The position numbers and the translations under genes are program-made. Below, in pieces: positions 3,339-45,666 of a stretch of 64,000 nucleotides of DNA. How positions within the stretch are numbered: position 1 is the stretch's first letter; every line of letters starts with the position of its first letter. Below the pieces are notes generated by a model that saw only the letters and a program-made list of their open reading frames with translations, was not told the origin of the DNA and did not search any database. Origin of the DNA: Candidatus Hydrogenedens sp. (GTDB taxonomy: Bacteria > Hydrogenedentota > Hydrogenedentia > Hydrogenedentales > Hydrogenedentaceae); NCBI GenBank assembly GCA_049968235.1, contig JBMFRC010000001.1, positions 320,001 to 384,000 on the forward strand, read 5' to 3'.

Positions 3339-3592
3339 GCTCCTTATTCGGTTTAATTTTTTTCTTATCCATAATTATATATTACTCCCTAAATGAAAAA
3401 TGCAAAAATGAATAGAATGATTTTGTTCTTATGCATCATGGCAAAATATCCGGATGACTTATATTTTTTTCTTGCAACGAGTGCATAATTCGTAGTAACA
3501 TTATATATGCTGAATTTATTGTTTTATGCGGTGTTTTATTAACGATTTCCTTATGTTATCCTATTTCGGTTCATAGAAAAGGTTTTCTTTTT

Positions 3593-4624
3593 TTGAAAAA
3601 AAAGTTTTTATCTGAAATAATTATTTGTTTTTGTTTTTTACTCTTATCTCTTTCTACATATGGAGATGCATTAAAGTCTGTAACTATCCGTTTTCCTGCT
3701 ATGGGAACGGAGTTTGTATTTATTATCTATCCCCCCTCCGAAGGCATGCTTGAAGAAGATATCCGCAATTTATGTGAACCTGCTATAAATGCTGTTTATA
3801 ATCTTGAGAAGCATATCAGTCATTACTTACCTGATAATGACCTTGCACGGTTAAACCAATCGGCAGGTTCAGGTATGCTTAAAGTAAACAGTGACCTTTT
3901 TGAGGTTATCCGCTGGTCTAAACGATATTGGGAACGCACAGGTGGTGCCTTTGACCCGAGTGTGGGTCCTTTGCTGGACCTATGGGGATTTTATAGAAAA
4001 AATCGAGAGGACCTTCCTTCGGATAAAGAAATTTCTGAAGCATTAAAGAAAGTAGGTATGGATAAAGTAATTATAAATGGAGACGAACAATCTGTTGGAC
4101 TAACAGTTCCCGGGATGCGTCTTGATTTTGGCGGAATAGGAAAAGGATTGGCATTAGACCGAGCAAAAACGATATTAAAAGGACAGGGAATACAATCGGG
4201 CATATTGCATTCCGGAACAAGTTCGATTGTAGCCATTGGGACACCCCCCAACCAGACAGGTTGGAAAATAGGTATCCGTTCGCCTTATAATAAAAGTGAA
4301 ACGATTGAAGAATTTATAATTAATGATGAATCACTTTCTACATCTTCCGTTTCTGAACAGTTTTTGGAACGAAAAGGCAAAAAGTTTGGTCATATATTTA
4401 ACCCGAAAACAGGTTACCCTGTAGATAATAGTATTGTGAGTGCCACAGTTATTTGCAAAACTGCAGTTGAAAGTGATGCTTTAAGCACATCGTTTTTTGT
4501 ACTTGGTATTGATAAAACACAGGAATATTGTAAAAAATTTCAGGATGTGAAAGTTTTTCTGGTATCCGAAAGTAATAAAAAATTAGATAAACAATACATA
4601 AACCTTAAACAAAGCGAGGAATAG
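3593..4624 (+). CDS. apbE: FAD:protein FMN transferase (ApbE family), secreted/lipoprotein
   Basis: Signal peptide. ApbE hallmark DFGGIGKGLALDRA. TTG start per ORF table. First gene of a tight operon, 3-nt gap to the next gene. Confidence 0.85.
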   Translation: MKKKFLSEIIICFCFLLLSLSTYGDALKSVTIRFPAMGTEFVFIIYPPSEGMLEEDIRNLCEPAINAVYNLEKHISHYLPDNDLARLNQSAGSGMLKVNSDLFEVIRWSKRYWERTGGAFDPSVGPLLDLWGFYRKNREDLPSDKEISEALKKVGMDKVIINGDEQSVGLTVPGMRLDFGGIGKGLALDRAKTILKGQGIQSGILHSGTSSIVAIGTPPNQTGWKIGIRSPYNKSETIEEFIINDESLSTSSVSEQFLERKGKKFGHIFNPKTGYPVDNSIVSATVICKTAVESDALSTSFFVLGIDKTQEYCKKFQDVKVFLVSESNKKLDKQYINLKQSEE

Positions 4625-4626
4625 CC

Positions 4627-6084
4627 ATGAAATCCAATGTCTCTCGTAGAAATTTTATCAAAACAGCAAGCACTGCCACAGGACTTATGGTAATGGCAGG
4701 AAAAGCCCCATTCTCCTATGCACTCAACGACAAAGTAAAGGTCGGTTGTGTGGGTTGTGGAGGACAGGGAAGTTTTCATATTAAAGATGGATTGATGGGT
4801 ACTTCTGATATTGTCATCACTGCGGTATGTGATGCGTATGGTCCCCATCAACGGTTAGCGGTGCAATTAGCCCAGATTTCAAATGCAGGTATTGCCCTTG
4901 AACCCGGACAGGGTCTAACCGAAGAACAACGGCAAAAGGCTCTGGCTGCATTCAAACCGAAGAGTTATTATGATTACCGTGAAATGTTAGAAAAAGAAGA
5001 ACTGGATGCAGTTGTAATTTCCACGCCACTCCATACACACTATCAAATAACTATGGATAGTTTGAGTGCCGGTAAATATGTCTTTTGTGAAAAGACTATG
5101 TGCTATGAGATTGAACAAGCACGAGACATCGTAAAGAAATGTCACGAAACAGGTAAATGGGTTCAGGTAGGACATCAACGGAGATACAATCCTTTATATA
5201 ACAAAGCCTTGATGATGATTTGGGAGGAGGGGACTATTGGTCGTATTGTTCATATTGATGCTCAATGGCACCGCAATAATGATTGGCGACGTCCGATTAA
5301 CAAAGACCATAAACTCAACTCTCAAGAAGCACGCTTCATTAAAGATTTAGAGCGATATATGAACTGGCGATTGTATAAAGAATCCTCCCGAGGCTTATTA
5401 ACAGAATTAGCAACGCACCAATTGGACATTGTTGCATGGTTCCTCGATGCTATGCCCAAACGGGTTCATGGTTGCGGTAGTCTGGATTACTGGAGAGACG
5501 GACGCGAAATTCACGATAGCATTAATATGATTTATGAATTTGATATAACCCCTGAAAATCGTGGCTACCGTGCTATTAATGCTCGCAGTAGTTATCAGGA
5601 TAAAAAGGCAATCAATCAACCTTACACAGTTCAATTAGCCTATTCCAGTATCACTGCTAATGCAAAGAAAGGATGTAATGAATTAATACAAGGTGATGAA
5701 GGGACTATTGAATTGAGTGAAGAGGGCGGAAGTTTCTATCCGGAAGCAACATCCAAAGTTTCCTGGGGCGAGTCCGGTAGTGCAGAACAAACCGCAACAG
5801 TCATCACTTCTGGTGGAACCTTAAAACTGAGTAATAAAGCCCTTCAAGAAGGCAAACCGATTGTTGTAGATAATACGCGTTCTGTTGACCAACTTCAATT
5901 TATGCGTTTTGCAAAAGATATTAAAGAAGGTGGCATTCCAAAGGCGAATCAGATGGTCGGATTACGTGCTACAATTATGGCTCTTGCAGGTTATCAGGCC
6001 ATAGAGGAAAAACGCATGGTTGAAATAGACCCGGCTCTCTACACCTTTGACTTCCCGACTCCCGACCCATCAACGGTTAGTTAA
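4627..6084 (+). CDS. Gfo/Idh/MocA family oxidoreductase with twin-arginine (TAT) signal peptide (periplasmic dehydrogenase)
   Basis: SRRNFIKTAS TAT motif. Rossmann motif KVGCVGCGGQGSFH. 485 aa. Confidence 0.85.
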   Translation: MKSNVSRRNFIKTASTATGLMVMAGKAPFSYALNDKVKVGCVGCGGQGSFHIKDGLMGTSDIVITAVCDAYGPHQRLAVQLAQISNAGIALEPGQGLTEEQRQKALAAFKPKSYYDYREMLEKEELDAVVISTPLHTHYQITMDSLSAGKYVFCEKTMCYEIEQARDIVKKCHETGKWVQVGHQRRYNPLYNKALMMIWEEGTIGRIVHIDAQWHRNNDWRRPINKDHKLNSQEARFIKDLERYMNWRLYKESSRGLLTELATHQLDIVAWFLDAMPKRVHGCGSLDYWRDGREIHDSINMIYEFDITPENRGYRAINARSSYQDKKAINQPYTVQLAYSSITANAKKGCNELIQGDEGTIELSEEGGSFYPEATSKVSWGESGSAEQTATVITSGGTLKLSNKALQEGKPIVVDNTRSVDQLQFMRFAKDIKEGGIPKANQMVGLRATIMALAGYQAIEEKRMVEIDPALYTFDFPTPDPSTVS

Positions 6085-6154
6085 CATTTTCAATTTTTAT
6101 AGAACAGATTCATATAATAAAATTATAAACATATAAAAAAGAGAAAGTGATGCC

Positions 6155-9100
6155 ATGAGTAAATCGTGGAGAAGATGTATTTCATTATTAGTTTTCACTT
6201 TGGGTTTTCTGCCATTCCTTTCTATTTCAGCAAAGGAGACAACAGAACCATTACAAAACATTATAGAAAATTATGATAAATATATAGGCAGAGACCTTGT
6301 AATTAATAATCGTGCTCCCAACGCAAAAGTCATTCGCACACTACCTCTCTCATGCCCTCCTTTCCATTTAAGGGATAAAAATGGGGATATTATTGACCCG
6401 ACAAAAAATGCGGATGGGACACCCATTGACCCCAACCTGCCGGTTCAACAGCAAGGAATTCCCAGAGCGGTAAGCACAAAACAGACATGTGGAGCATGTC
6501 ATCCTTATGACAGGATTACTCATGGTTATCATTTTCAGATGGGTCGTGATGAACTTTATCCAGATACAGACCCGAGTAGTGGCGTTCCTAAAGATAAAAG
6601 TCCCGGGTTTTTCGGGAAATGGCTCTCTCTATATCAACGGGAATTGGTAGGAAAACATTTTGAAAATCCTGAACAGGTAGATATGACTCCTTTTGACTGG
6701 ATTGTAAATTGTGGAGTATGTCATCCCGGTGGTGGACCTGCTGAATATGACCGTTCCGGTAAAAATTATGCAACGGTGAAAAAAACAAGTCCATTAGCAG
6801 GTTCTTTTGGGGATGGAGATTACCACGAATCCCCATGGGAAAAAACAGGGGTTATTGAAGCGGATTGTTTCATTTGTCACCTTGAAGATTATGAATATTC
6901 CCTTCGTGCTCAACAGATAAAAAAATGGAACTTCGAATATGCAGCAACTGCGGGTGCTGGCTTTGGTTTCGTTTGGGGCTCAACCATTGATGGACAAGAG
7001 CCCAAAGTTTACTATAACAAAAGCCTTTTCCGTGCAGATGGAACAGTGCACCTACACATTCGCCGTCCAACAGACCGTCAATGTATGTTCTGCCATGATA
7101 TGTCCAGTGTTCAGAAACGTGGAATTTCATGGCACTCTCCATATATGCAGGATGTTCACACAGAACAAGGTCTGAAATGTATTGATTGCCACCATGGTGA
7201 TATCCGCCACAATTTTGCAAAAGGAGATTCTTCTATACAAACAGTTCGCGATGATTTGGATAATACAATTTTATCCTGTAAAAAATGTCATTACCAACAG
7301 GAAAAAGGCGCCCCGTACCCCGAACATAAAGGATTACCTCCTTTACATCTGGAACGGATAGATTGTACAGCGTGCCATATAACGCATCGTCCATTCTTGC
7401 CTGTATCTATTATTGACCCATTAACAGGCAAAGCCATAACTTTACCGGAAATCCAGGATATGAATTATTGGGGAGCCTTTGAATTCGGCGGTTTTTGGGG
7501 TTGGTCGCGAAGTAGAGACGATGCAAATCTTATATTTCCTTATACCGAAGACCAATTAAAGCAGGCTAAGGAATATATTATTTCTAATGAAGACAATATT
7601 CGCAAAATGTTCAAAGAAGCATTTTTGACAGACCTGCCCGAAGGGAATATTAAAGTCGCCGATTTCATCCAGCAAAAACAGGGACTTGAAAATTCAGAAG
7701 CCCGTGGATTAATGCTGATTACATTATCCCAATTAGTCCGTCCTGCAAAAGAAGCATTCCCGGTTGTTGTTTTCCGAAATCAAGCATACTCCTACGATGC
7801 CGGGCAAATACGGGAATTAAAAACAACACCACAACCGAAACGACCCGGTGCTACTATTATCGAATCTTCTTTTGATTTAGGTAGAAGTAAACCTGATGGA
7901 AAAATCTATGCTCAGAATACTCAGGTTTCCGCATATTGGGTTTATACTGATGGGGAGGAGGTTCGTCCTGTATTGCTTAAAGACATGAAGAAGGCTTACG
8001 ACTGGTTAACATCACAAGAATATAGTTTCTCTCTTTATTCCGCACAGCCTCAGAATGGACAGACTTCTCCTGCACTTCCGGAAAATCCATTCAAACAGGC
8101 ACAACAGACAACTACAACCTCATCGGAAAATACCGGAGCATTACAATCGCAAACATCTCCTCCCTCAGATACAGCAGAACGTAAAAAGACAGCGGAAGAA
8201 GTTCGTCAAATAGCAGAGATGGAAGAAAACCTAAAATCTGCTATACAGAAAAAAATAAAGGTATATTCCACATCGGACACTCGACCATTAAAAATTTATG
8301 ACGATAACAATGATACCTTCCCCGAAGTAAATTCTCAGGAAGAAATCGGCTTGTTCGCATGGGCACTTAAACAGACTGTTCCATCGCTACGCGAAAAAGA
8401 TTTATATTACTTGAGAGGAACCACTGTTTTTCGTGTTAGTGTTAAAGGCGGAGAAAATCCTTATGACCGTGAGTTTTTAGATATGGACCGTATTGGTGAG
8501 AATAAACCTTTCATAGCCATTACGAGATACGAACAGAAAGAAGAATCCGGTGAATATAGTTGGGACAAACCGAAACAAGTTTGGAAACCTGTCGAAATAC
8601 GACTTTGTTCGCCGTATGAAGCAGAGATTGTGCAAGTTGACCCGAAGGCATATCCATCTATTATCGCTATGGCAAAACCATTAGAATGGACTGTCTCTCA
8701 TGGTGTAGAACCTGCAAGCCGTGCATACGGTGCTAAAGGTTGTACAGAGTGCCATTCAGAAAATTCTTCATTCTTCATGGGTAGTATGCTCGTAGACCCA
8801 TTTTCTGAAAACGGGACGCCCAAATATGTTCCCCTATGGCATATCTTGGGCTACGATATTTCCAACTTGAAAATAGGAGCATGGCGCGAAGGTGTATTGA
8901 AAAAATATGCCCCATGGATTGTGCTCATACAATTATTACTCATTCTTGTACACTATGTCCTTATCGGGAGAAAAGAAGGAACACCTGTTGGGAAACCTAA
9001 TGTCCTTCGTTTCCGTTTTTATGAACGAATAGCCCATGCGATTGCCATGATTAGTGTTACATTCCTGGCTATTACGGGTTTCTTCTTCCTTATGGGTCAA

Positions 9101-9601
9101 CATGACCCCTTAGGACCCTGGGCAAGGGTGTGGCATACATGGTTTGGTTATGTCGCATGTGCGGGTGTTGTATTTATCTTCTTATCCTGGGTAGCCTTCA
9201 TGTTCCCTGCTAAAGGGGATTTCCGTTGGTTATTGAAAGCAGGCGGTTATTTAGGTGGTGTTAAAGGACATGTTCCAGCGGGCAAATTTAATGCCGGGCA
9301 AAAAATCCTATTCTGGTTAGCAATACTTGCATCAGGGACCTGTGGAATAACAGGTGTTGTTATGGGACTTAATCGTGGTTTTCACTTCCCAAATCAAGAA
9401 ATATTCTATACGATACACGATATATCTGCACTGGTTATGATTCTGGTACTCATTGCTCATATTTATTTAGCCGCCTTTGTTGTCCCTCACAGTTTGCGGG
9501 CTATTTTCGGAGGAAAGGTAAGCGATATATGGGCAAAAGAACACCATTCACTCTGGGCTTTTACAGTAATTGATGAAAAAAACAATTCATCTGAACATTA
9601 A
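6155..9601 (+). CDS. Octaheme c-type cytochrome fused to a C-terminal dihaem cytochrome b (Ni/Fe-hydrogenase/FdnI-type cyt b) membrane domain; CbcL-like quinone-interacting electron conduit
   Basis: Signal peptide. Eight CxxCH motifs (CGACH, CGVCH, CFICH, CMFCH, CIDCH, CKKCH, CTACH, CTECH). S/T/Q-rich linker. C-terminal ~260 aa has 5 TM helices with His in TM1 (AHAIAM), TM2 (WHTWF) and two in TM4 (IHDIS..AHIYL), the classic bis-haem b ligation pattern. Confidence 0.8.
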   Translation: MSKSWRRCISLLVFTLGFLPFLSISAKETTEPLQNIIENYDKYIGRDLVINNRAPNAKVIRTLPLSCPPFHLRDKNGDIIDPTKNADGTPIDPNLPVQQQGIPRAVSTKQTCGACHPYDRITHGYHFQMGRDELYPDTDPSSGVPKDKSPGFFGKWLSLYQRELVGKHFENPEQVDMTPFDWIVNCGVCHPGGGPAEYDRSGKNYATVKKTSPLAGSFGDGDYHESPWEKTGVIEADCFICHLEDYEYSLRAQQIKKWNFEYAATAGAGFGFVWGSTIDGQEPKVYYNKSLFRADGTVHLHIRRPTDRQCMFCHDMSSVQKRGISWHSPYMQDVHTEQGLKCIDCHHGDIRHNFAKGDSSIQTVRDDLDNTILSCKKCHYQQEKGAPYPEHKGLPPLHLERIDCTACHITHRPFLPVSIIDPLTGKAITLPEIQDMNYWGAFEFGGFWGWSRSRDDANLIFPYTEDQLKQAKEYIISNEDNIRKMFKEAFLTDLPEGNIKVADFIQQKQGLENSEARGLMLITLSQLVRPAKEAFPVVVFRNQAYSYDAGQIRELKTTPQPKRPGATIIESSFDLGRSKPDGKIYAQNTQVSAYWVYTDGEEVRPVLLKDMKKAYDWLTSQEYSFSLYSAQPQNGQTSPALPENPFKQAQQTTTTSSENTGALQSQTSPPSDTAERKKTAEEVRQIAEMEENLKSAIQKKIKVYSTSDTRPLKIYDDNNDTFPEVNSQEEIGLFAWALKQTVPSLREKDLYYLRGTTVFRVSVKGGENPYDREFLDMDRIGENKPFIAITRYEQKEESGEYSWDKPKQVWKPVEIRLCSPYEAEIVQVDPKAYPSIIAMAKPLEWTVSHGVEPASRAYGAKGCTECHSENSSFFMGSMLVDPFSENGTPKYVPLWHILGYDISNLKIGAWREGVLKKYAPWIVLIQLLLILVHYVLIGRKEGTPVGKPNVLRFRFYERIAHAIAMISVTFLAITGFFFLMGQHDPLGPWARVWHTWFGYVACAGVVFIFLSWVAFMFPAKGDFRWLLKAGGYLGGVKGHVPAGKFNAGQKILFWLAILASGTCGITGVVMGLNRGFHFPNQEIFYTIHDISALVMILVLIAHIYLAAFVVPHSLRAIFGGKVSDIWAKEHHSLWAFTVIDEKNNSSEH

Positions 9602-9659
9602 TTTCCTTTACAATTAAACGTTATAACACATTATTTATCATTAACATTGGGAGTATCTT

Positions 9660-10226
9660 ATGAAAATCCTGTCTTTATTGGGAAGCCCTAAAAAAAATGG
9701 GAACTCCGCACATGCATTGAACTATCTCGAAGAACAACTGAAACAACAGAACCATGAAATAAAACATATCCATGTCTCTTCCTTCCTTATTGAAGGGTGT
9801 AGGGAATGTTATTGGTGTAAACAGGAGGGGAATTTTTTGTGTTGCAATAACGATGATGCAATACCTATCTTAAAAGGAATGCTTGATTCAGATGCTATTA
9901 TCTTTTCTGCACCGACCTTTTGTTGGGGTTTTCCCGCACAAATGAAAGCCCTTTTCGACCGCATGTTCTGCCTGATTTCATGGAAAGAAGGAGATAGTGA
10001 AAATAAATCTTTGCTGAAAGGGAAAACTATGGCACTCATTGTAACTGCAGGGGGTGAAGTGAAAAATAATGCAGAACTTTTAGGAATTGCCTTCAACAAT
10101 ATGGCAGAATTTATGAATTGTAAATCTGCAGGGATAGTTTATATTGCCCCCTGCGAAGGTATTCATTCTATCAATGATAAGATAAAAAAACAATTAGACA
10201 ACTTAGCCCAAAATCTGAGTATCTAA
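9660..10226 (+). CDS. Flavodoxin-like fold NAD(P)H-dependent FMN reductase / iron-sulfur flavoprotein-like protein
   Basis: LLGSPKKNGNS N-terminus typical of the NADPH-dependent FMN reductase / multimeric flavodoxin fold. Cys cluster CRECYWC...CC. Last gene of the operon. Confidence 0.55.
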   Translation: MKILSLLGSPKKNGNSAHALNYLEEQLKQQNHEIKHIHVSSFLIEGCRECYWCKQEGNFLCCNNDDAIPILKGMLDSDAIIFSAPTFCWGFPAQMKALFDRMFCLISWKEGDSENKSLLKGKTMALIVTAGGEVKNNAELLGIAFNNMAEFMNCKSAGIVYIAPCEGIHSINDKIKKQLDNLAQNLSI

Positions 10227-10466
10227 TATCTTTAATTGTAAAATAGATCTGCCATTACTTTGAAAAAAAAAGAATATTGTTATCATTTCTGCTGTTAGTA
10301 TGAGGCCCACGAAACGGATGTAATTGTATCTACAACCACATTGATATTACATTGCAATTATAAATTTAATTTTTATATCTTCTCACCCCCCTATATCTAC
10401 CATTCGATTATAGATAGCACTAATGGTATTTTCTATGAATACCTATGCTCATAGCCCTTGAGTATG

Positions 10467-10507
10467 CAAGCCCTCCAGTTTCCCAGAGGGCTTGCATAAT
10501 ATTTTTT
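10467..10507 (+). terminator. Rho-independent terminator between convergent genes
   Basis: 11-bp stem tgcaagccctc/gagggcttgca with a 10-nt loop, followed by TAATATTTTTT. Confidence 0.45.
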
Positions 10508-10523
10508 GTTCAAGCAGTGAGTA

Positions 10524-11759
10524 TTATCTTTCGTTAGAATTATTCTTCAGGATTCCCCTTACCTTGCTATTTTGTGTCAATAACAAGAAGGAAAGAATTA
10601 CTAAAACAAATATATCACTCAGATGTGAATTTGTTGAAGGTCCACCGGAACCGCAAGATACAATGAAAGTTCTCTTGGCTCCTTTACTCATTACCAGTAT
10701 AACCTCTGTCCCCTTAACAACTTCAGTTCCAACAGAGGGCTCGGTTCGGATTATGCTCCCTTTCGGTACATCTTTGCTATATTCTTCTTTAATCGTTGCG
10801 GATACCTTAAGTCCTGCAGATGTTAGTATTTGAATAGCCTCGTCTTTAGATTTTCCTTTAACATCCGGCACTTTTACTTTCTGAATAGGTTCTCCTTCAT
10901 TACTTCCTTCGGGAGTACCTTCAACTACACCTTCAGGGGTTCCTTCTGGACTACCTTCCTGATGACCTTCGACTGTTCCTTCGCCTTCTGCATTCCCTTC
11001 GACAGAACCTTCTGTGCTTCCTTCTATACTACCCTCTTGCATACCTTCAGGAATGCCTTCTGTTGAACCTTCTTGTGCTCCTTCTCCTTCGAGAGTGCCT
11101 TCTATTATACCTTCTTGCTGTCCTTCGGTGATTCCTTCAACATTTCCTTCGCCTTCTGCAGGCGGTTCTAATGGAAGTATTTTAGGTGCTTTCGGGTCAT
11201 CAAACATGGGAACATAAGCAAATATATCGTTGATTTGGACTTGAGCCAAATTTATTTGTGCATCCCCGGTTTGTTTCATACGGAACAATACTTTGAGCAA
11301 TTCAAGACTTCCCTTAGCACCGATATTTTCAGAACTGCTTCCTGCAATTTTCAGACTACCTGTAGCATTTGCATTAGAGTTATAACTTAACTTCATATTG
11401 CTAACTGCATCACCTAATACGACCTCCATTACCTCCGCATATTCTTTATCGAAATTAATTACAAGAGAGAAGCCCGCTATATTGGATACATTGTTCATTA
11501 CCACAGATACCCACTTTTCAGAGCCTGCTGTTCCAGATAAGTAATCTGTTAATTGGGCATAAACAGTTGCATCCTCTTTTTCTACTCGTGCAAGGGTAGA
11601 CTCCGCAGACAAAGAACCTGCATCTGCCAGCCATTTTAAGTCGCTTATATAGTCTTCATAACTCTTTGCGTCTATTTTCTTTCCTGTTGGCATTACATCT
11701 TTACCTGTTAACCAGCGTTGTAGCATGCTGGAGTCAGCACTATCCACCATTCCATCCAT
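10524..11759 (-). CDS. C-terminal fragment of a disrupted giant surface protein: dockerin-like start, cohesin-like domain, xEGxxEG acidic repeat, PASTA domain, C-terminal Gly/Ser-rich + hydrophobic + basic tail
   Basis: ORF begins inside a dockerin repeat (GDFNMDGMVDSADSSMLQRWL continues upstream in another frame). Homologous to 11846-14179 and to the intact 20173-25416 protein. Tail SCGSGGP...FVLVILSFLLL...KVRG. Confidence 0.55.
   Translation of the reverse strand: MDGMVDSADSSMLQRWLTGKDVMPTGKKIDAKSYEDYISDLKWLADAGSLSAESTLARVEKEDATVYAQLTDYLSGTAGSEKWVSVVMNNVSNIAGFSLVINFDKEYAEVMEVVLGDAVSNMKLSYNSNANATGSLKIAGSSSENIGAKGSLELLKVLFRMKQTGDAQINLAQVQINDIFAYVPMFDDPKAPKILPLEPPAEGEGNVEGITEGQQEGIIEGTLEGEGAQEGSTEGIPEGMQEGSIEGSTEGSVEGNAEGEGTVEGHQEGSPEGTPEGVVEGTPEGSNEGEPIQKVKVPDVKGKSKDEAIQILTSAGLKVSATIKEEYSKDVPKGSIIRTEPSVGTEVVKGTEVILVMSKGAKRTFIVSCGSGGPSTNSHLSDIFVLVILSFLLLTQNSKVRGILKNNSNER
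10870..11170 (-). repeat. Imperfect 12-nt-periodic coding tandem repeat (nnnnccttc on the + strand) encoding xEGxxEG acidic linker
   Basis: Visible periodicity of ccttc every 12 nt. Protein EGNVEGITEGQQEGIIEGTLEGEGAQEGSTEG... Similar tracts at 12955-13135, 13558-13700 and 20335-20445. Confidence 0.7.
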
Positions 11760-11845
11760 ATTAAAGTCACCGGATTTCTGAATACAGGGATTTCCTCCTG
11801 TGTTATTTGTCCAATAATCCAGGATATATTGTGTGTCTAAATCGT

Positions 11846-14179
11846 TTACTTCATATTATTATCCGCATCACCAAAGACACATCCGTCTGTAACACACAAT
11901 TGTCCATCTTCTAATATAAGTTCTAACGGTTGTGTAAATGAGGAGATCACATCGTATAGGCGAACTCCATTGCCGGCTCCATCATCCGGAATAAGGTGTA
12001 ACTGTCCACATAAAGGACCTAAAACAGATAAATTGGGTTTAGCAATAATATTAAACAGAGTCCCAGCACCATACAAACTTTCTGCTTTTATTCCTGCTGC
12101 AGCAATTCGAACATTAATTGTCTCACCTTGAGGTATAGCTAATGATGCTATCATCATCCCACTAGTAATACCTGATGGTAATACGGTGATAGTCTCGGGG
12201 TCTGATATTAAGGCAGATGGCAATTCCGAATCAATCTGTATGGATGTTGCTGAAACATCATAAACTGATTTTGAGTTCACGGGAATACGAATAAGTATTT
12301 CATCAAGATTTTGTGGATTCGGTTGTAGCCAATAAAGACTGGTATCTGTTATATTAACCTGTTCAGGGAAGAATACGGTTAAGTATTGTCCACGAACCGT
12401 CTCCGAAGCATCTGATAACACAGTATAACGGTCCACATCACTTACAGCCTGTATGGCATATTGGTAGTAAATCCCTAATTCTACCGCATTATCTATATAT
12501 TCTAATGTTGTTAGATAACCTTCATAAGGCAACCTGTCCGGATTATTCAATCGTTGCCAATCTGTCAATGAATTCCCATCTCTATCTACTGTCCTGCGAT
12601 ACACATTATAGCCAGCAATATTATACTCAGGATTTGTATCCCATGCTACGCGAACACTATGCGGTCCACTATAAGGACGTGGACGGAATGATTTTTGAAT
12701 ATTTCCGGGGTCTAATTCAACAAGCAATTCAGCATTGGTATCCACAGGTTGTATCGTTTTGGGCTTATATTTCCGCTTTGTAAAGTCCAAACGATATGGC
12801 GGTTGCAATGTACCTAAATCTGGAAAGGCAAAACGTCCATTATTATCTGTTAGCACAGGTTCATTCCCTTTACTATCTGCAACGCTAATTTGGACTAATA
12901 CACCGGGAATCGGGCTTTTGCTTATACTATTTATCACCTGACCACGAACACCTGCATATTCGCCTTCGAATGTCCCTTCCGTAGTTCCTTCAATAGTTCC
13001 CTCCGGAATTCCTTCAATTACTCCTTCAGGTATTCCTTCAACATTACCATCCATAGGACCTTCGGGAATCCCTTCGATAACACCTTCAATTGTTCCTTCC
13101 GTTACACCTTCAGGTGTCCCTTCTTCACAGGGTCCTGTGGAAACCCAGATATCCACAGGTATTTCTATTGTATTCTCATAATTACAAGTGCCTTCTACAG
13201 CCATAGGTTCTTGCAAAGCGATGTATCCAGCGGGATAATTATTATCACATACCTCAACAATCTGTCCTAATAATAATCCATAATCTACAATTAATTGTTG
13301 TGCCTCTTCCAATGACATACCTATAACATTAGGAACTATGGTACAGGGTCCACAAGAGATAATCAGGTCAACGATTGTTCCAATCTCTACTGTATTTCCA
13401 CCACCGGGTATTTGTTCAACGACTGTGCCTGCCGGGTATTGGTCATTGCACATCTCAATAATAGCACCAATATTTAGGTTGGCATTACTAATTTCTCCCG
13501 TTGCTTCCTGTTGCGGAAGTCCTATCATATATGGAACTATAGTTGTTTCAATAGCACCTTCGCCTTCAGACATCCCTTCGCCTTCAGACATCCCTTCGCC
13601 TTCGAATAGCCCTTCTGAACTGCCTTCAATACTACCTTCGGTAGTTCCTTCAAATGAACCTTCTCCTTCTACAATACCTTCAACTACACCGGGTTCAGGC
13701 TCTCCAATAACAGGATTGAGTGGGTCTTCAAATCTTGGGGTATGTCCATATTTATCGTGTATCTGAACCTGAACAAATTTAATATCGCCTTTTCCATCTC
13801 GCTTAATCTTAAACTTTACTTTTACCAATTCAACTTCTCCAGAGGTTCCCAACTCTTCTTCACCTCCCGCACTTATCCGCAAACTGCTACTGGAACCAGA
13901 ATTTACTACTTCATAATTCCATCGCCATATATTTGCTGCATTCACAGGTTTTACCTGCTTTACTTCAGCAAAATCACTATCATAATTCAAGACAAATTCA
14001 AATCCTGCCACATTTGTTACTTCATCAGCCACAATGGCAATCCATTTATCACTGCCTGCAGACCCTTCTAATGTGCCACGGAACCACACCTTTACTCCCA
14101 CATTATTCTTTTCTAATTTGGCTAACTTTGCTTGTGCGGATAGGGAACCATGGGAAGCTAACCATTTCAATTCATCCAC
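11846..14179 (-). CDS. Central fragment of the disrupted giant surface protein: cohesin-like, EG repeats, 2 PASTA-like, EG repeats, carboxypeptidase-regulatory-like, FN3, dockerin start
   Basis: 777-aa ORF. Its frame stays open upstream of the annotated Met into a dockerin repeat, interrupted only by an in-frame TGA at 14270-14272. The C-terminal GDADNNMK* continues as a dockerin after a frameshift near 11840. Confidence 0.55.
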   Translation of the reverse strand: MDELKWLASHGSLSAQAKLAKLEKNNVGVKVWFRGTLEGSAGSDKWIAIVADEVTNVAGFEFVLNYDSDFAEVKQVKPVNAANIWRWNYEVVNSGSSSSLRISAGGEEELGTSGEVELVKVKFKIKRDGKGDIKFVQVQIHDKYGHTPRFEDPLNPVIGEPEPGVVEGIVEGEGSFEGTTEGSIEGSSEGLFEGEGMSEGEGMSEGEGAIETTIVPYMIGLPQQEATGEISNANLNIGAIIEMCNDQYPAGTVVEQIPGGGNTVEIGTIVDLIISCGPCTIVPNVIGMSLEEAQQLIVDYGLLLGQIVEVCDNNYPAGYIALQEPMAVEGTCNYENTIEIPVDIWVSTGPCEEGTPEGVTEGTIEGVIEGIPEGPMDGNVEGIPEGVIEGIPEGTIEGTTEGTFEGEYAGVRGQVINSISKSPIPGVLVQISVADSKGNEPVLTDNNGRFAFPDLGTLQPPYRLDFTKRKYKPKTIQPVDTNAELLVELDPGNIQKSFRPRPYSGPHSVRVAWDTNPEYNIAGYNVYRRTVDRDGNSLTDWQRLNNPDRLPYEGYLTTLEYIDNAVELGIYYQYAIQAVSDVDRYTVLSDASETVRGQYLTVFFPEQVNITDTSLYWLQPNPQNLDEILIRIPVNSKSVYDVSATSIQIDSELPSALISDPETITVLPSGITSGMMIASLAIPQGETINVRIAAAGIKAESLYGAGTLFNIIAKPNLSVLGPLCGQLHLIPDDGAGNGVRLYDVISSFTQPLELILEDGQLCVTDGCVFGDADNNMK

Positions 14180-14182
14180 ATA

Positions 14183-15574
14183 TCCTTTGCCCGCTGTTGA
14201 GATTTTTGGAGGTGTAATACTTTTTCTTGCTAACCAACGCTGAATTAAACTGGAATCCGCACTATCTACTCACCCATCGAGATTAATATCTCCTGATTTT
14301 AAGATGCATGAATGTGCACCTACTTTCCTAACCCAATAATCCAGAACAAATTGCTCATCTGTACTATCAATTACACTATCATTATTTACATCTCCATGAA
14401 TACATCCCCCTGAAACGCATAATCGTCCATCCACAAGAAGCACAGGTAAGGTTCTGTCTGATTTTGAATTACATTATATAACCGAACACCATTTCCCACA
14501 CCATCATCAGGAACTAAATGTAATAAACCACACTCATTCAAAAGATTTAAGCGAGGTTTTGCAAGAATATTAAATAATACTCCAGAACCATATAAACTCT
14601 CTGCTATCCCACCAGCAGATGATATACGAACATTAATTTTATCTCCATTTCTAACGGCATTGGCACTTATATTCATACCTGCGGTAATACCTGAGGGCTC
14701 CACCGTAATTGTGTCGGGATTGAGCAATAAACTTCTGGGCAATTCCGCATCGATTTGTATGGAAGTAGTGGAAACATCATATACAGCCTCTGAATTAACA
14801 GGTATTCTTACTAATTGTTGTTATGGATTTTGAGGGTCTCTTTCCCAGAGAAACATACCGCTATCTTTATAATTTACTTGTTCCGGGAAGAAAATAGTTA
14901 AAAATTGCCCTACTACATCTTCCGAAGCATCCGAAAGATTGGAATAACGGTCGACATCACTAACTGCCTGTATTGCATATTGATAGCGAATACCCGGTTG
15001 TATTGCGGTATCTGTATATTCTAATCCTCCAATATATCCTTCATAAGGAGGTAATCCCGGATTATTCAATTTTGCCCAAATAGAACTTCCTACTGTCCGA
15101 CGATATACATTATAGCCAGCAATGTTATATTCAGGATTTGTATCCCATCCAATACGGACACTATTGGTTCCTCCATAAACACGAGGAATGGTGGGTCTCT
15201 GAATATTTCCCGGCTCTATTTCCGCAAAAAGTTCTGCACCCGAATCAACAGGTTGAACCGTTTTCGGTTTAAATTTATTCTTTGTAAAATCCAGACGATA
15301 GGGAGGTAATAAACTCCCTAAATCGGAAAATTCAAATAGCCCATTTTTCATCTGTTAAAACAGGCTCTGTACTCTGTTTATCTGCAATACTTATTCCAAC
15401 AAGTACTCCCTCTACAGGTTTTTTGCTAATACTGTTAATAACCTGTCCCTTAACACTAAAGACTTTTTCTGCTACTGCTTGATTAGTAATAGCACATGCT
15501 ATTACTAATAGTGATATGCTCAAAAATATATTATTTTTTACAAAAATTGACTTTGCCCTACTTTTTGCATTCAT
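14183..15574 (-). pseudogene. N-terminal portion of the same giant surface protein (signal peptide, CarbopepD_reg-like, FN3, cohesin-like, dockerin), broken into ORFs 15332-15574, 14821-15351 and 14386-14742 by a frameshift and in-frame stops
   Basis: Paralog alignment with 11846-14179 (e.g. YRLDFTKNKFKPKTVQPVD vs YRLDFTKRKYKPKTIQPVD). TAA at 14821-14823 sits in-frame between two ORFs (DPQNP*QQLVRIP vs paralog NPQNLDEILIRIP). Frameshift in an A/T run at ~15341-15349. Frameshift at ~14430-14450. TGA at 14270-14272 where the paralog has ATG (DG*VD vs DGMVD). Confidence 0.55.
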
Positions 15575-17925: not shown

Positions 17926-20184
17926 ATGCATTTCTGGCTGATTAATGACAATGTTTTATTAAAATCTTCCCGTGCAGACATCGGTGGAAAAGGCTGGGGG
18001 CTGGTTCGATTAAAATTACAGGGATTAAATGTGCCACCTTTCGGAATAATCAGCACAGAAGGTGTGAAATATAAACTCTGGAAAACCGATACAGATTTTC
18101 AAAATGCAATAATGGCATGGTGTAAAGAGATATGGGATTGTTCCATAAGTAAGAAAGTAATCGTCCGCTCATCTGCATGTGAGGAAGACCATCAACATCA
18201 TTCTTTTGCAGGAAAGTTTTTAACAGAGGTTATAACAAAGCCAGAAGAACTTGTTCCAACACTGGACAGGATAGCCAAACATTATGCTTTAACTATAAAA
18301 ATGGATACGGGGAATTTTTCTGAAGGTCCCCATGGACTTGCAATTATTCTCCAGGAGTTTGTCAGTGGTGAAATCTCCGGCGTATGCTTTTCGACCCGAC
18401 CTATGAATGCAAATCCTCAACAAGTATATTGTGAAGTAGTAAATGGTGAAAATAAGTTGTTGGTTGATGGGGAAATACAACCCACTCGGATACTTTTTTA
18501 TCCCTCCACCGCAGAATTGATAGATTTTCAGGAAGGTTCTAATGGACCTGAATCAATACCTGAAGAATTATTAATAGAATTATCTCATGGGCTAATGAAG
18601 ATGGAATGGGATTACCGCACTGCAGTGGATATGGAATGGACATGGAATGGTAACAAGGTATGGTTTTTACAGATTCGCCCAATTACAAAGGTAACTCCTT
18701 CCCATAATTTATATCCAAAGGAATGTGCTACTTGCTGGTTTTTTGACCAACGTTTTATTGAACCGATTACAACTATTACCCAAACCACACTTATTCCGTT
18801 AATCCTGAGAAAGGCAATCACAGAGGGACTTAACATGCGACGAAAAAATACCCCCATTGAACCGTATTACTTTGGGGGTCAGGTGTATATCCCCCATCGG
18901 GCTTACTTCGATTTACTGGAGGGTTGTCCTAAATGGTGGCTTTCCTCCGATTTAAAACTGTTATTCCCTAATAACTGTGGTTGCCCGCATAAAAAAAAGA
19001 ACTTCCTGGGAATAGAATTCTGGCTGGATGCTTTTCGTTCATTGTTAAAACACTGGCGTGATGCTATTTTTGTGTTATGTCGCTGGGGACAATGGAAGAA
19101 GGATTTATCAAAGAAATTAAGTCTGTGGAATAAGGAGGATTTGTCAGAGATTACAACAGATGAATGGGTAACGCAATGGGAGCAATGCCAGAGATTATCC
19201 GAAGAATTTTTAGAAATACATCGCTGGGCAATACTCTGGTCCAGTTATGTATATCGTTTAGGGGGAAAGTATATCGTTCGTGGTAAGGAAAGACAGTATC
19301 CCTCTATTACGACACGGGCAAATCACATATTGACATCTTATTTATTCACCCGTGACATAAAATTATTAGCCCTCCTTCGCACTGAATATTCACACCGCAC
19401 AGAAAGTCTCGATTTTATATCTCCTCGATGGGGAGAATGGCTTTCCGGTGAGGAACAAAATGAATTGTTTAAAACGCAATTATTAGAGGAGAGGAAAGAT
19501 ATTCCATTAACATCACTGCAAACAAGGGAAAAAGCAGGTATTCTGTATCGTATTTTCGCAAAGTTTATACATCTGCGTGAGGAACAACGATTTGAATGGG
19601 AAAAAATATTAAATGTACAGAAAAAATTATTAAAGGAAGCAGGTAAACGATTGGTAGAAAAAGGTATCTTGATGGAGATAAATCAGGTCTGGTTTATAAG
19701 CGGGCTGGAATTAATGGAAGCACTTATAAAGGATAAGCCAATTAATCTAAAAGAAGTTTTGCTACGCCAACATCAATGGTGCGTTGAACATATATTTACA
19801 AAACCATTATTTATCAACGAAGGTGGTTTCATACTATCTACTTCCGAAAAAGATAAAGATACATGGTCAGGCTGGGGTGTGTCCGAAGGAAGAGTAAAAG
19901 GGACTGCCTATGTGAGCAGTAATCCGACTTCACTCCCATCCAATATCGCACATCCTCGTATTCTTGTAACACCTTGTTTAAATCCCGGACAGACATGGTG
20001 TCTGCAATACTGGGACGGTGTTCTATTGGAACGAGGCAGTGAACTGTCTCATCCTGCTATCATTGCACGGGAGATGAATATCCCCATGATTGCGAATTTA
20101 CCTGAGATTACACATAAACTAAACACGGGCGATTTAATTTATATAGATGCAACTTATGGTAAAGTTAGCCGTTTAAAATCTTAA
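17926..20184 (+). CDS. PEP-utilizing enzyme family protein (PEP synthase / pyruvate phosphate dikinase-like; PPDK_N ATP-grasp-like N-domain + phosphohistidine mobile domain)
   Basis: N-terminal GGKGWGLVRL resembles the PEP/pyruvate-binding N-domain. C-terminal mobile domain with SHPAIIAREMNIP (phospho-His motif). 752 aa. Confidence 0.65.
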   Translation: MHFWLINDNVLLKSSRADIGGKGWGLVRLKLQGLNVPPFGIISTEGVKYKLWKTDTDFQNAIMAWCKEIWDCSISKKVIVRSSACEEDHQHHSFAGKFLTEVITKPEELVPTLDRIAKHYALTIKMDTGNFSEGPHGLAIILQEFVSGEISGVCFSTRPMNANPQQVYCEVVNGENKLLVDGEIQPTRILFYPSTAELIDFQEGSNGPESIPEELLIELSHGLMKMEWDYRTAVDMEWTWNGNKVWFLQIRPITKVTPSHNLYPKECATCWFFDQRFIEPITTITQTTLIPLILRKAITEGLNMRRKNTPIEPYYFGGQVYIPHRAYFDLLEGCPKWWLSSDLKLLFPNNCGCPHKKKNFLGIEFWLDAFRSLLKHWRDAIFVLCRWGQWKKDLSKKLSLWNKEDLSEITTDEWVTQWEQCQRLSEEFLEIHRWAILWSSYVYRLGGKYIVRGKERQYPSITTRANHILTSYLFTRDIKLLALLRTEYSHRTESLDFISPRWGEWLSGEEQNELFKTQLLEERKDIPLTSLQTREKAGILYRIFAKFIHLREEQRFEWEKILNVQKKLLKEAGKRLVEKGILMEINQVWFISGLELMEALIKDKPINLKEVLLRQHQWCVEHIFTKPLFINEGGFILSTSEKDKDTWSGWGVSEGRVKGTAYVSSNPTSLPSNIAHPRILVTPCLNPGQTWCLQYWDGVLLERGSELSHPAIIAREMNIPMIANLPEITHKLNTGDLIYIDATYGKVSRLKS

Positions 20185-23100
20185 GTTCGAAAGGTCTGAC
20201 TTGTCCAACGGGTGTTCTCTCCTTCGCATACCACTCATAGCAAGTAATAACATGCCCATCAACACAAAATCCAATAGATATTTTAACCAATTGTCTCCAT
20301 CCCTGGATTTATGATTACACCCACAAATTCCAGTATTTTGCCCCTCTCCTTCCCCTTCTCGAGTGCCCTCAACATTCCCTTCCACTATTCCTTCCGGATT
20401 ACCTTCTTGAGTTCCTTCCAGAGTTCCTTCACTAACTACTATACCTGCTTCTGCTTTATCAATATATCCATCCTTATTGGTATCAGCACTATCAAAAGTA
20501 TCTCGGGACAGGGTGGAATATCGTGCCACTGCTTCTTCATAGGAAACTTTCCCATCCTTATTCGTATCCACCAAATCAAAATTTGTTTTTAGGTCATTTA
20601 TGAATTGCTCTACCCCGGTTATGGTAATAGAAGCACCTTTTGCATTAATTACTCCATACCAACTCAGGTCATCTCCAAATTCCCCCTTTATTTTTACTTC
20701 GCGTATTTGAATGTTTATTTTCTTTGATGTCATCGTTGTGGGTTTAAACTTTATTTGTATAATTCGTCCTTTTTCTTTTGTTGTAATGGGTTTTTCGCTA
20801 CTTATTGAAACTTTCAAATAACCCTCACCGACTTCTGTATCCTTCTTAAAGTTGCTGGCAATATCTGCCATGTTTAATCCGTAGAAATTTATACCTTCAT
20901 CATAGGTTAAGAGCAAATCCATTCCCGCAACACCTAATAATGAACTTAATTCTATACCTGTGCGATATTCATTGTTTGAGTCCGGTGTTAGGTTATCTAC
21001 AACAATTTCCACCGTACGATTATTTTCCGTTTCTAACAAGGCTTTTTCCCCAATCACGGTTGAACTCGGATTGATTGGAAGCCCTGCCAATTTACGCAGT
21101 AGTAACGACACATCCGCACAATCTAAAATTCCATCTCCATTAAAATCACCTCTCCGTTTATCACATTCCAAATCAACAATACCTGCTTTGCGAACAATCT
21201 TGCGCAGGAACACAATCGTATCAGACATACCAATGTAACCATCAGTATCCATATCTCCATAGATGCAACGACTACTAATACAATTCGTATCTGGGTTTTC
21301 TTCCAATACATTGAGTTGTCCATGAACCAATTCTACTGGCAATTCCTTCTGCTGGGTATCTTTAATAATAACCTTCTGCAATTTCAGGTCTGTATCCTGA
21401 GCACAACTTCCTGCCACTGTATTCTGTCGCACACGAAAAACCATATCAAAGAGGTGTCCTTCTCCATAAAGCACTTTCTTCTCATTATCAACTCTGGGTC
21501 CCGCATGGAATTTTATAACACCCTGTGTACGGGTATCCGAAACAACCTCAAGATTTCGTGTTACAACCGTTTTTTGAACCTCTACAAGTTCAAGCACTGT
21601 GTTGTTGTAACTCACATTAATATCAATCGTATAGGGTTCCAATCCCCGTACACTGTTTATATTTATCGGTATCTGAATTGTATCCCCACTTCCTTCTGGT
21701 ATCCAATCGATTGTAGGTATCCATACACGTAGCTTACCCGGTTCTGCTTTGACAGGCTCTGTAGGGTCGCTTTGTTGTTGATTGGTAGCAATAGCAATCA
21801 AACGATAATACCATGCCCGAGAGGTATCCACTTCGTTATCTGTGTAATTTGTACCTGTAATAATATTTGAGGAAACAGTAATCCACGGTCCGTTTCGTGT
21901 TTCGCTTCGTTCTAATTGGTATCCTGCAAGATTTCGCTCCACATTAGGCTCCCAGATAAGATAAACATGGTCTATCCCTGAAAAAACCTGCAATCCATGA
22001 GGGGTTGAAATCTTTGTCCCAGCAGGGTCAGGACCATTACTTACAATTAACTCAACCGTTGTTCCGTTCAATACGGAACTTCCTCCAACAGGAGATTGTC
22101 CCATTACAACATTTTGTGAAACGGTATCGCTATACTGCATTACTGTACGGGTCAGCAAACCCGTAGATTGGATTTGCCCTATTGCAGAAGTTATATTCTG
22201 CCCAATAACATCCGGTACCGTGATATATGTGTTTCCAGAACATTGTCCTGTTGAAACCCAAATTGTAACTTCCGCACCTCGATTTACTCCACTATAAGCA
22301 ATTGGTGATTGGCGTATTACCTGCCCCATGGCAACATAATTGTTACATTCCCGTTCCACCTTAACATGCAAATCCGCTATCTGTATTGCCTCATTCGCCT
22401 GCTGTTCGCTTCTCCCTACAACATCTGGAACCAATACACCCGGACATAATCCACTGGATACAGTTAACTGAATATAGGTTCGTGATGAAATTACATCTCC
22501 CGATGATGGGATTTGACTCAGGACATTTCCCTGTGCCACTGTGTTACTACAGTTATAAGTCGTACGGATTCTATTCAGTCCTACACCTTCAAGAGTGTTT
22601 TTTGCTTGTTGTTCTGTCATACCGACCACCCCCGGAATAGTTACGAAGATTTCTCCTTCTCCTGTTCCTTCGCCCTCTCCCTCTCCTATAAGGTCTACAA
22701 TCCATTTAAGTAATGGATAATCTGTCCCTTCATTTGCAACCCATATATTAACAAAATCCCAATCGTTGTATGTTGCTTGCTTATACATTTCTATTGTGGT
22801 TTTTCCTGTTCCACCATCGGAAAACGATGTCCCGGCAGATTGCACATCCCAATAACTGGACACTACTGTTCCTCCATCGTTATACCCAACAAGCCCACCA
22901 ACATATAGTTTCCCCGTAACATTGGCACTGCTATAACAATTACGAATATTTGTTTCAAAAGAATTCTCAGTATTCATTTGGTACCCAACCAATCCACCGA
23001 TAAACGAATTTCCGCCAACAAAGGAATCATAAACAAAACTATCTGTTATATTGCCACCATAATTTATCCCTACAAAACCACCCACTCCATAATCAGCTGT

Positions 23101-40981: not shown

Positions 40982-41039
40982 TTTTAATCTCCTTTCCAAA
41001 TAAGGTTAAAATTTTATTTTTATCGATATGAGTTCTTTA

Positions 41040-45542: not shown

Positions 45543-45666
45543 AAAAATTACTCCTTATCTTGTTTTTTCACATAAGCAATAAAAATTTCTTCTAACGATG
45601 GAATAGCGATATTAATTATCTCTCCACCTTGTTGTTGTATTTGTTCTTTTATGTTTGTGTTATTCC

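What the first reader, a model, noticed from the sequence alone, without database searches (positions are those of the whole stretch)
10524..15574. Second giant surface-protein locus is one ~1680-aa paralog shattered by at least five lesions
Reading the minus strand continuously gives signal peptide, CarbopepD_reg-like, FN3, dockerin, cohesin-like, EG repeat, 2 PASTA, EG repeat, CarbopepD_reg-like, FN3, dockerin, cohesin-like, EG repeat, PASTA and a C-terminal tail. This is one modular protein, not several genes. The frame is broken by a frameshift in an A/T run (~15345), an in-frame TAA (14821-14823), a frameshift (~14440), an in-frame TGA (14270-14272) and a frameshift (~11840). The paralog segments are only ~70% identical at DNA level, so this is an old duplication now decaying, or a region of poor consensus quality.
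Basis: seen in the sequence. Interest (0 to 1): 0.65.

Follow-up and report, generated by a model that had tools for sequence, protein, structure and literature searches.

The report
Recently broken giant surface-protein gene
This stretch is the wreck of one very large cell-surface protein gene in an uncultivated Hydrogenedens bacterium, and the same breaks appear in separately assembled genomes, so it is a real but ordinary dead gene rather than a sequencing error.

Summary
On the minus strand, 15574-10524 reads as one 1,683-codon gene once five lesions are repaired:
- an extra A at 15343-15347
- TAA at 14821-14823
- a missing C at 14450-14451
- TGA at 14270-14272
- a missing base near 11852-11855

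The product would be a signal peptide, then two copies (50-53% identical) of a module: CarboxypepD_reg, FN3, divergent cohesin-like domain, dockerin, cohesin, acidic EG linker, PASTA. It ends in a Cys-containing transmembrane anchor.

The lesions are real. Contigs from another NCBI Candidatus Hydrogenedens MAG cover about 26.6 kb of the window at 99.97% identity with no indels. They share four of the five lesions and have CAA (Gln) in place of the TAA. A further MAG shares the extra A and both stops. It is intact at the missing-C site and carries two frameshifts of its own. All homologues in other species read through all five sites.

Inactivation is recent: family-invariant residues are kept as well as in intact homologues. 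The two-module fusion is old, since a related species has it too.

Verdict: a genuine, recently and progressively decaying pseudogene of an uncharacterised Hydrogenedens surface-protein family. It is ordinary biology and of low interest.

The parts
10524..15574 (-). Whole pseudogene: a 1,683-codon reading frame after five repairs, from ATG 15574 to stop TAA 10524-10526
15470..15574 (-). Signal peptide (MNAKSRAKSIFVKNNIFLSISLLVIACAITNQAVA). It is the only part still joined to a start codon, within the 80-aa stub ORF 15574-15332.
   Evidence: aligned with the signal peptide of intact homologue P0002; assigned by inspection
15343..15347 (-). Lesion L1: one extra A in an A run (AAAAA instead of AAAA), a frameshift at codon 76/77. 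Present in all three assemblies.
15229..15454 (-). CarboxypepD_reg domain, unit A (interrupted by L1)
14908..15210 (-). FN3-like domain, unit A (weak Pfam match)
14821..14823 (-). Lesion L2: nonsense TAA at codon 251. MAG contig L001 has CAA (Gln), and most homologues have Gln here. Polymorphic among strains.
14399..14901 (-). Divergent cohesin-like domain I, unit A (no Pfam hit; interrupted by L2 and L3)
14450..14451 (-). Lesion L3: one C missing (CC instead of CCC), a frameshift at codon 375. Shared with L001. L002 has CCC here but lacks a G in the GGGGG run at 14406-14410.
14237..14398 (-). Dockerin type I, unit A (interrupted by L4)
14270..14272 (-). Lesion L4: nonsense TGA at codon 435. 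Nearly all homologues have Leu here, consistent with TTA to TGA. Present in all three assemblies.
13739..14092 (-). Cohesin domain II, unit A
13559..13717 (-). Acidic EG-repeat linker 1. It contains a perfect 18-nt tandem repeat (13557-13603), and one copy is absent in L002.
13127..13549 (-). PASTA domains 1 and 2
12956..13126 (-). EG-repeat linker 2. It joins unit A directly to unit B with no stop codon, no anchor and no second signal peptide.
12731..12949 (-). CarboxypepD_reg domain, unit B
12380..12706 (-). FN3-like domain, unit B
11864..12373 (-). Divergent cohesin-like domain I, unit B
11852..11855 (-). Lesion L5: one base missing inside the first Ca-binding loop of dockerin B (GDADNN|xEVNDLD), a frameshift at codon ~1241. 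Shared with L001. No contig of the third MAG covers it.
11700..11863 (-). Dockerin type I, unit B (interrupted by L5)
11211..11558 (-). Cohesin domain II, unit B
10896..11174 (-). EG-repeat linker 3
10683..10877 (-). PASTA domain 3
10527..10682 (-). C-terminal anchor: the conserved KRxFIxSCG motif, a hydrophobic helix and a basic tail
   Evidence: conserved in all full-length homologues; no Pfam or NCBIfam match

Best explanation
The locus is a genuine, recently inactivated pseudogene of a single ~1,683-aa secreted, C-terminally anchored modular surface protein of a Candidatus Hydrogenedens lineage.

The ancestral gene arose by fusing two old tandem copies (50-53% identical) of an ~800-aa module. 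Each module runs CarboxypepD_reg, FN3, cohesin-like domain, dockerin, cohesin, acidic EG linker, PASTA. The gene has one signal peptide at the start and one Cys-containing transmembrane anchor at the end.

In this lineage the gene was knocked out by the +1 A frameshift at codon 76/77 and the TGA at codon 435; which of the two came first cannot be told. Both are present in all three available assemblies.

Further lesions then accumulated and still differ between near-identical strains: CAA to TAA at codon 251, independent 1-nt deletions around codons 375-390, and a 4-bp deletion. The 1-nt deletion at codon ~1241 is present in both assemblies that cover it. That these later lesions were selectively neutral is inferred.

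Only an 80-aa stub carrying the signal peptide is still joined to the start codon. The downstream pieces lack any export signal, so no functional surface protein can be made.

Shown: the lesions, their reproducibility, the domain content, and intact homologues in other species. Inferred: the order of events, and the ancestral function as a surface-anchored cohesin/dockerin scaffold held near the wall by PASTA domains.
For: - Five lesions restore a single frame with collinear homology.
- Every homologue from other Hydrogenedens assemblies reads straight through all five sites, with Gln at L2 and Leu at L4.
- GCA_049969095.1 contigs (L001/L010, L015) cover about 26.6 kb of the window at 99.97% identity with no indels. 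They carry L1, L3, L4 and L5, but CAA at L2.
- The GCA_049971155.1 contig (L002) carries L1, L2 and L4. It is intact at L3 and has private -G, -ATGT and in-frame -18 bp changes.
- All four indel differences between L002 and the window lie inside this locus. Six of the seven substitutions lie outside it.
- TAA and TGA are ordinary stops in 30 of 34 intact genes in the window.
- Units A and B keep 91% and 93% of family-invariant residues. Intact homologues score 82-97% in a leave-one-out control, so the inactivation is recent.
- Unit A clusters with L011_A (81%) and P0002. Unit B clusters with L011_B (70%). L011 has the same fused A-B layout, so the fusion is old.
- No intact protein above 68% identity turned up in the search of the 5.8-billion-protein collection, which scores only the 8,000 candidates sharing most words.
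Against: - No reads were available.
Their independence is therefore inferred only from their SNP and indel differences.
- Three of the indel lesions sit in short homopolymers (A5, C2/3, G4/5), the type of site where some platforms err.
- The L2 and L3 states across the three assemblies need either recombination or chimeric consensus sequences, so each MAG sequence may not be one real haplotype.
- L5 is confirmed in only two assemblies.
- Expression was not tested.
Confidence: 0.88

Rival explanations
1. Assembly or sequencing artefact: the gene is intact in the organism, and the five lesions are consensus errors.
For: Three lesions are 1-nt indels in short homopolymers. A related contig, L011, carries a 26-nt near-perfect tandem duplication that looks like an assembler bubble artefact. 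The window probably comes from a 421-kb contig, which might be long-read derived.
Against: - L1, L3, L4 and L5 are base-for-base identical in another MAG assembly whose contigs (L001/L010, L015) differ from the window by SNPs. Those contigs show no indel differences over about 26.6 kb.
- Two lesions are substitutions to stop codons, which are not a typical systematic error. One of them (TGA) is in all three assemblies.
- The rest of the window has one frameshift in about 48 kb of coding sequence, and that frameshift is also reproduced in the other MAG.
Confidence: 0.05
2. The pieces are still functional: either separate smaller genes, or one protein made by programmed frameshifting and stop-codon read-through.
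For: The 777-aa and 411-aa ORFs are long and were called as genes by annotators. The 411-aa piece is named 'PASTA domain-containing protein' in NCBI. The 176-aa ORF has an ATG overlapping the end of the 80-aa ORF.
Against: - The ORF boundaries cut through domains: the CarboxypepD_reg domain, both dockerin Ca-binding loops and a cohesin-like domain.
- Only the 80-aa stub has a signal peptide.
- Recoding would need one +1 shift, two -1 shifts and two different stop read-throughs, and no canonical slippery heptamer is present.
- The lesions differ between near-identical strains, which is incompatible with a conserved recoding programme.
- Homologues have none of these features.
Confidence: 0.03
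3. Loss was selected rather than neutral: the exposed surface protein was costly, for example as a phage receptor or aggregation factor, and knock-outs swept repeatedly. That would explain several independent disabling mutations among near-identical strains.
For: - Independent strain-specific frameshifts lie within 42 nt of each other, and a nonsense mutation is polymorphic.
- Other Hydrogenedens genomes also carry decayed copies of this family. One is a 582-aa truncated copy reproduced in different assemblies. Another is a 3' remnant of about 250 aa.
Against: L1 and L4 are shared by all three strains and already abolish the protein. The later strain-specific lesions therefore need no selection. 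Three genomes are too few for any test of selection.
Confidence: 0.12

Closest known systems
Candidatus Hydrogenedens 'PASTA domain-containing' / 'carboxypeptidase regulatory-like domain-containing' proteins (P0001-P0006, P0027-P0034; MAG annotations only, no experimental work found)
   Same: The module order is the same: CarboxypepD_reg, FN3, cohesin-like domain, dockerin, cohesin, EG linker, PASTA, then the KRxFIxSCG transmembrane tail. Identity is 45-81%. L011/P0001 has the same fused two-unit layout.
   Different: In the window the gene carries five disabling lesions. In several other species the two units are separate tandem genes, each with its own signal peptide and anchor.
Cellulosomal anchoring and adaptor scaffoldins of Clostridia (proteins carrying both cohesin and dockerin modules)
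   Same: The protein combines Pfam Cohesin and Dockerin_1 modules in one secreted, cell-anchored, linker-rich polypeptide.
   Different: There are no catalytic or CBM modules and no SLH or sortase anchor. Anchoring would instead be through PASTA domains plus a C-terminal transmembrane segment. Cohesin-dockerin binding is untested, and the organism is not a known cellulolytic bacterium. The resemblance is at domain level only. Non-cellulosomal cohesin/dockerin proteins are known to be widespread (my own background knowledge).
Neighbouring intact 1,747-aa protein (window 20173-25416, minus strand)
   Same: It shares the FN3, cohesin, Ca-binding dockerin/EF-hand, cohesin, EG linker and Cys-containing transmembrane tail arrangement, plus PASTA repeats. 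Identity is ~23% over ~500-630 aa.
   Different: It has GLUG repeats and seven PASTA domains, lacks CarboxypepD_reg, and is intact.
Bacterial pseudogenes formed by frameshift and nonsense mutations in surface-protein genes
   Same: Several small disabling lesions lie in an otherwise well-preserved frame, they are polymorphic among close strains, and flanking genes are intact.
   Different: Nothing unusual. It is simply documented here in an uncultivated phylum.

Membership tests
Pseudogene (disrupted former protein-coding gene) | Collinear homology to intact proteins across the whole length, interrupted by frameshifts or premature stops | tested here: met
   Five lesions were found, and repair gives 1,683 aa collinear with P0001 and P0002.
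Pseudogene (disrupted former protein-coding gene) | The lesions are real and not sequence errors | tested here: met
   The same lesions occur in two other MAG assemblies that differ from the window by SNPs. One of those MAGs shows no indel differences over about 26.6 kb. Reads were not available.
Pseudogene (disrupted former protein-coding gene) | No full-length product is made | not testable with these tools
   This needs proteomics or ribosome profiling. It is inferred from the frameshift at codon 76/77 and the lack of signal peptides on the downstream ORFs.
Hydrogenedens CarboxypepD_reg-FN3-cohesin-dockerin-cohesin-PASTA surface-protein family | The same ordered set of domains and the conserved C-terminal KRxFIxSCG + transmembrane tail | tested here: met
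   Pfam hits. Alignment A1 has about 190 invariant columns and includes the tail motif.
Cohesin-dockerin (cellulosome-type) assembly system | Recognisable cohesin and type I dockerin modules | tested here: met
   PF00963 at 46.5 bits and PF00404 at 49.1 bits, both above their cut-offs and with two stretches each.
Cohesin-dockerin (cellulosome-type) assembly system | Dockerin-bearing enzymes, or demonstrated cohesin-dockerin binding | not tested
   No catalytic module occurs in this protein. Partners were not searched for genome-wide, and binding needs experiment.
Divergent cohesin (the domain between FN3 and the dockerin) | Significant profile or fold similarity to cohesin | tested here: inconclusive
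   No Pfam hit. hhalign to the family's own cohesin II gave E = 0.03. hhalign to the Pfam-cohesin of the 1,747-aa neighbour gave E = 1e-4, probability 56%. The AF2 model is all-beta but has pLDDT 40-70 in this region.
Known C-terminal sorting signals (PEP-CTERM, GlyGly-CTERM, MYXO-CTERM, CGP-CTERM and others) | A match to a curated NCBIfam or TIGRFAM model of the signal | tested here: not met
   There were no CTERM-family hits at E <= 0.01 for the tail-bearing piece or for homologues, and no Pfam hit for the tail alone.

The most novel reading that the evidence does not exclude
The decay might not be neutral. Hydrogenedens populations may repeatedly discard members of this cohesin/dockerin/PASTA surface-protein family under selection, for example to escape phage or to change syntrophic aggregation. 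That would make the family a fast birth-and-death locus. The family would also carry a previously undescribed Cys-containing C-terminal sorting signal (KRxFIxSCG + transmembrane segment + basic tail).
Probability: 0.12. Interest if true: 0.45.

Novelty: new member of a known kind. Interest (0 to 1): 0.22.

Why it matters
Mostly for annotation hygiene. The six ORFs called here, some named 'PASTA domain-containing protein' in public MAGs, are fragments of one dead gene and should not be counted as separate proteins or as a functional surface protein.

It also shows that the window's consensus is trustworthy, because the lesions reproduce across assemblies.

A secondary point: it documents an uncharacterised family of cohesin/dockerin/PASTA surface proteins in Hydrogenedentes. 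The family undergoes duplication, fusion and loss, and has a conserved, unclassified C-terminal anchor motif.

Tried and rejected
1. A search for an intact near-identical allele. Two scans of the 5.8-billion-protein collection, one metagenome-contig scan and one GTDB genome scan found nothing closer than 68-81% identity.

2. A syntenic orthologous locus. The nearest lineage with the neighbouring cytochrome gene (L018, 86.7% DNA identity over window 3467-10214) loses synteny exactly after the FMN reductase gene. P0002's locus has different neighbours. No positional orthologue was available.

3. Structure prediction of unit B's first three domains. The CarboxypepD_reg and FN3 parts were confident, but the unknown domain had pLDDT 40-70. 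No fold search was run, because a match would be meaningless. A PDB sequence-profile search of that domain gave nothing.

4. The promoter and terminator scan showed no enrichment over shuffles.

5. Literature searches found no work on these Hydrogenedens proteins.

6. Alternative genetic code and programmed recoding were considered and rejected.

7. dN/dS against the orthologue was not attempted, because at 65-81% amino-acid identity synonymous sites are saturated. Retention of invariant residues was used instead.
Full report
**What is there.** The minus strand between 15574 and 10524 carries six consecutive ORF pieces:

| Piece (window coordinates) | Length |
|---|---|
| 15574-15332 | 80 aa |
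| 15351-14821 | 176 aa |
| 14742-14386 | 118 aa |
| 14443-14270 | 57 aa |
| 14179-11846 | 777 aa |
| 11759-10524 | 411 aa |

Reading the DNA at each junction shows five discrete lesions:

| Lesion | Position | Change | Codon |
|---|---|---|---|
| L1 | 15343-15347 | AAAAA run where AAAA restores ...VLTDENGLFEF... | 76/77 |
| L2 | 14821-14823 | in-frame TAA | 251 |
| L3 | 14450-14451 | one C missing at GAACC\|TTACCT | 375 |
| L4 | 14270-14272 | in-frame TGA | 435 |
| L5 | ~11852-11855 | one base missing inside GDADNN\|xEVNDLD | ~1241 |

Repairing only these five positions gives a single 1,683-aa frame from the ATG to the stop. They are within about 12 nt for L3 and L5.

**What the product would be.** Pfam finds PASTA (three stretches), CarboxypepD_reg (two), Dockerin_1 (two), Cohesin (two) and a weak FN3.

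The order is signal peptide, then unit A, then unit B.
- Unit A: CarboxypepD_reg, FN3, a ~165-aa domain, dockerin, cohesin, EG-repeat linker, two PASTA domains, EG linker.
- Unit B: the same order, with one PASTA domain and a C-terminal tail.

It aligns to the Pfam-defined cohesin of the neighbouring 1,747-aa protein (hhalign E = 1e-4, 122 columns). Its match to the family's own second cohesin is weak (E = 0.03). An AlphaFold model is all-beta there but of low confidence. I call it cohesin-like, not proven.

Units A and B are 67% identical in DNA over ~1,270 nt and 50-53% in protein. Similarity to the intact 1,747-aa gene at 20173-25416 is only ~23% over 500-630 aa plus the PASTA repeats, so 'paralog' is true only loosely.

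**Whose gene it is.** All significant homologues are from Candidatus Hydrogenedens MAGs. They share the module order and a conserved tail: KRxFIxSCG, about 10 residues, a hydrophobic helix, then basic residues. This tail matches no Pfam or NCBIfam sorting-signal model.

Two other NCBI MAGs carry the locus.

Contig L001 (GCA_049969095.1) is 99.97% identical to the window over 16.9 kb, with five substitutions and no indels. It carries L1, L3, L4 and L5 base for base. At L2 it has CAA (Gln) instead of TAA, and its gene call there is 321 aa.

Contig L002 (GCA_049971155.1) is 99.7% identical. It carries L1, L2 and L4. At L3 it has CCC, which is exactly the repair I had predicted. It also has changes of its own:
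- a missing G in the GGGGG run at 14406-14410
- a missing ATGT at 14100-14103
- one copy fewer of a perfect 18-nt repeat in the EG linker (13586-13603)

All four indel differences between L002 and the window lie inside this locus. Six of the seven substitutions lie outside it.

A further 7.8 kb of the window (43772-51524) is matched by another contig of the first MAG, with two substitutions and no indels.

The 34 clearly intact genes of the window end in TAA (22), TGA (8) or TAG (4), so the genetic code is standard.

Every homologue from other species reads straight through all five sites, with Gln at L2 and Leu at L4. That is consistent with CAA to TAA and TTA to TGA.

The consensus is therefore good and the lesions are biological.

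The caveats are as follows.
- No reads were inspected.
- The L2/L3 combinations are (TAA, -C), (CAA, -C) and (TAA, intact). They need recombination or chimeric consensus sequences.
- No contig of the third MAG covers L5. L002 ends at window 12036, and the other contig starts just after L5.

**Age of the events.** An NJ tree places unit A with the A-part of L011 (81% identity) and with P0002 (70%). It places unit B with the B-part of L011 (70%).

L011 is a 5.2-kb metagenome contig with the same direct A-B fusion: PASTA, EG linker, then CarboxypepD_reg, with no stop, anchor or second signal peptide. The duplication and the fusion therefore predate the split of these species.

More distant Hydrogenedens genomes keep the units as separate tandem genes, each with its own signal peptide and anchor.

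The inactivation is recent. Units A and B retain 91% and 93% of positions invariant in the database homologues. Intact homologues score 82-97% in a leave-one-out control. In the identity matrix the window's units are about as close to the other family members as L011's are.

L1 and L4 are common to all three assemblies, and either alone abolishes the protein. The other lesions vary among strains or could not be checked in all three. This fits drift after the first hit.

**Consequence.** Only the 80-aa stub keeps the start codon and signal peptide. The ORF boundaries cut through the CarboxypepD_reg domain, a cohesin-like domain and both dockerins, and the downstream pieces have no export signal.

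Programmed recoding is not credible. It would need one +1 shift, two -1 shifts and two different read-throughs at sites that differ between near-identical strains.

The ancestral role is inferred from domain content only: a surface-anchored, possibly self-associating cohesin/dockerin scaffold held near the wall by PASTA domains.

**Context.** The nearest other lineage that shares the upstream block (L018, 86.7% DNA identity over window 3467-10214) loses synteny exactly after the FMN reductase gene. The pseudogene therefore sits at a rearrangement boundary.

No intact allele above 68% identity was found in the word-filtered search of the 5.8-billion-protein collection. The closest DNA-level relative in the metagenome scan is L011.

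Decay recurs in this family. One tandem copy is truncated to 582 aa by a frameshift in assemblies from different sources (P0031, P0033). In Ca. H. terephthalaticus only a 3' remnant of about 250 aa of the upstream copy remains.

**Verdict.** The 'poor consensus' alternative is rejected.

This is an ordinary, recently formed and still-decaying pseudogene of an uncharacterised surface-protein family. Interest is low (0.22). The novelty class is a new member of a known kind.

Noticed in passing
window 45667-46478 (minus strand), frameshift at ~45976-45980: The ABC-transporter ATPase downstream of a GntR regulator is split into 174-aa and 103-aa ORFs. A 1-nt deletion sits exactly at the Walker B motif (...LSHRPELLV|(M)DEPSSGLDP...). 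The same split (169 + 103 aa) is present in MAG GCA_049969095.1, on a contig with no indels relative to the window. This is a second real pseudogene in the window.
   Followed up: partly
window 10527-10682 (minus strand); also the C-termini of P0001 and P0003-P0006, and window 20173-20330: A family-wide conserved C-terminal tail: KRxFIxSCG, about 10 residues, a hydrophobic helix, then a basic tail. It matches no Pfam or NCBIfam sorting-signal model. The 1,747-aa neighbour ends in a similar tail (GICGCN...TM...RRRE). It may be an undescribed Cys-containing C-terminal sorting or anchor signal.
   Followed up: partly
L013 4386-6561; L003 512-1102; L012 5992-6582: Other Hydrogenedens genomes carry this module as tandem separate genes, and the upstream copy is also decayed. 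In one lineage a frameshift truncates it to 582 aa; this is seen in assemblies from different sources (P0031, P0033). In Ca. H. terephthalaticus only a 3' remnant of about 250 aa remains.
   Followed up: partly
L011 1934-1985: The closest orthologue contig (FWWL01019251.1) has a 26-nt tandem duplication with one C/T mismatch that shifts the frame inside PASTA1. It looks like an assembler artefact from two alleles, but could be a real lesion.
   Followed up: no
window 10214-10524 and ~3467: Synteny with the nearest other lineage (L018, 86.7% DNA identity) covers only 3467-10214 (ApbE, GFO/IDH oxidoreductase, multihaem cytochrome-cytochrome b fusion, FMN reductase). It stops right where the pseudogene begins. 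L018 has a GH36 melibiase there instead.
   Followed up: partly
window 41000-47000: This is a low-GC stretch (29-34%, against ~38-41% elsewhere). It contains a 780-aa ORF and several shorter overlapping ORFs with no Pfam hits, next to the GntR/ABC operon. It may be acquired DNA.
   Followed up: no
window 14823 and 14450-14452, compared with L001 and L002: The three assemblies show three of the four possible combinations of the L2 and L3 states, 372 nt apart. The fourth, ancestral combination is implied by the outgroups. This needs recombination between strains, recurrent mutation or chimeric MAG consensus sequences.
   Followed up: no
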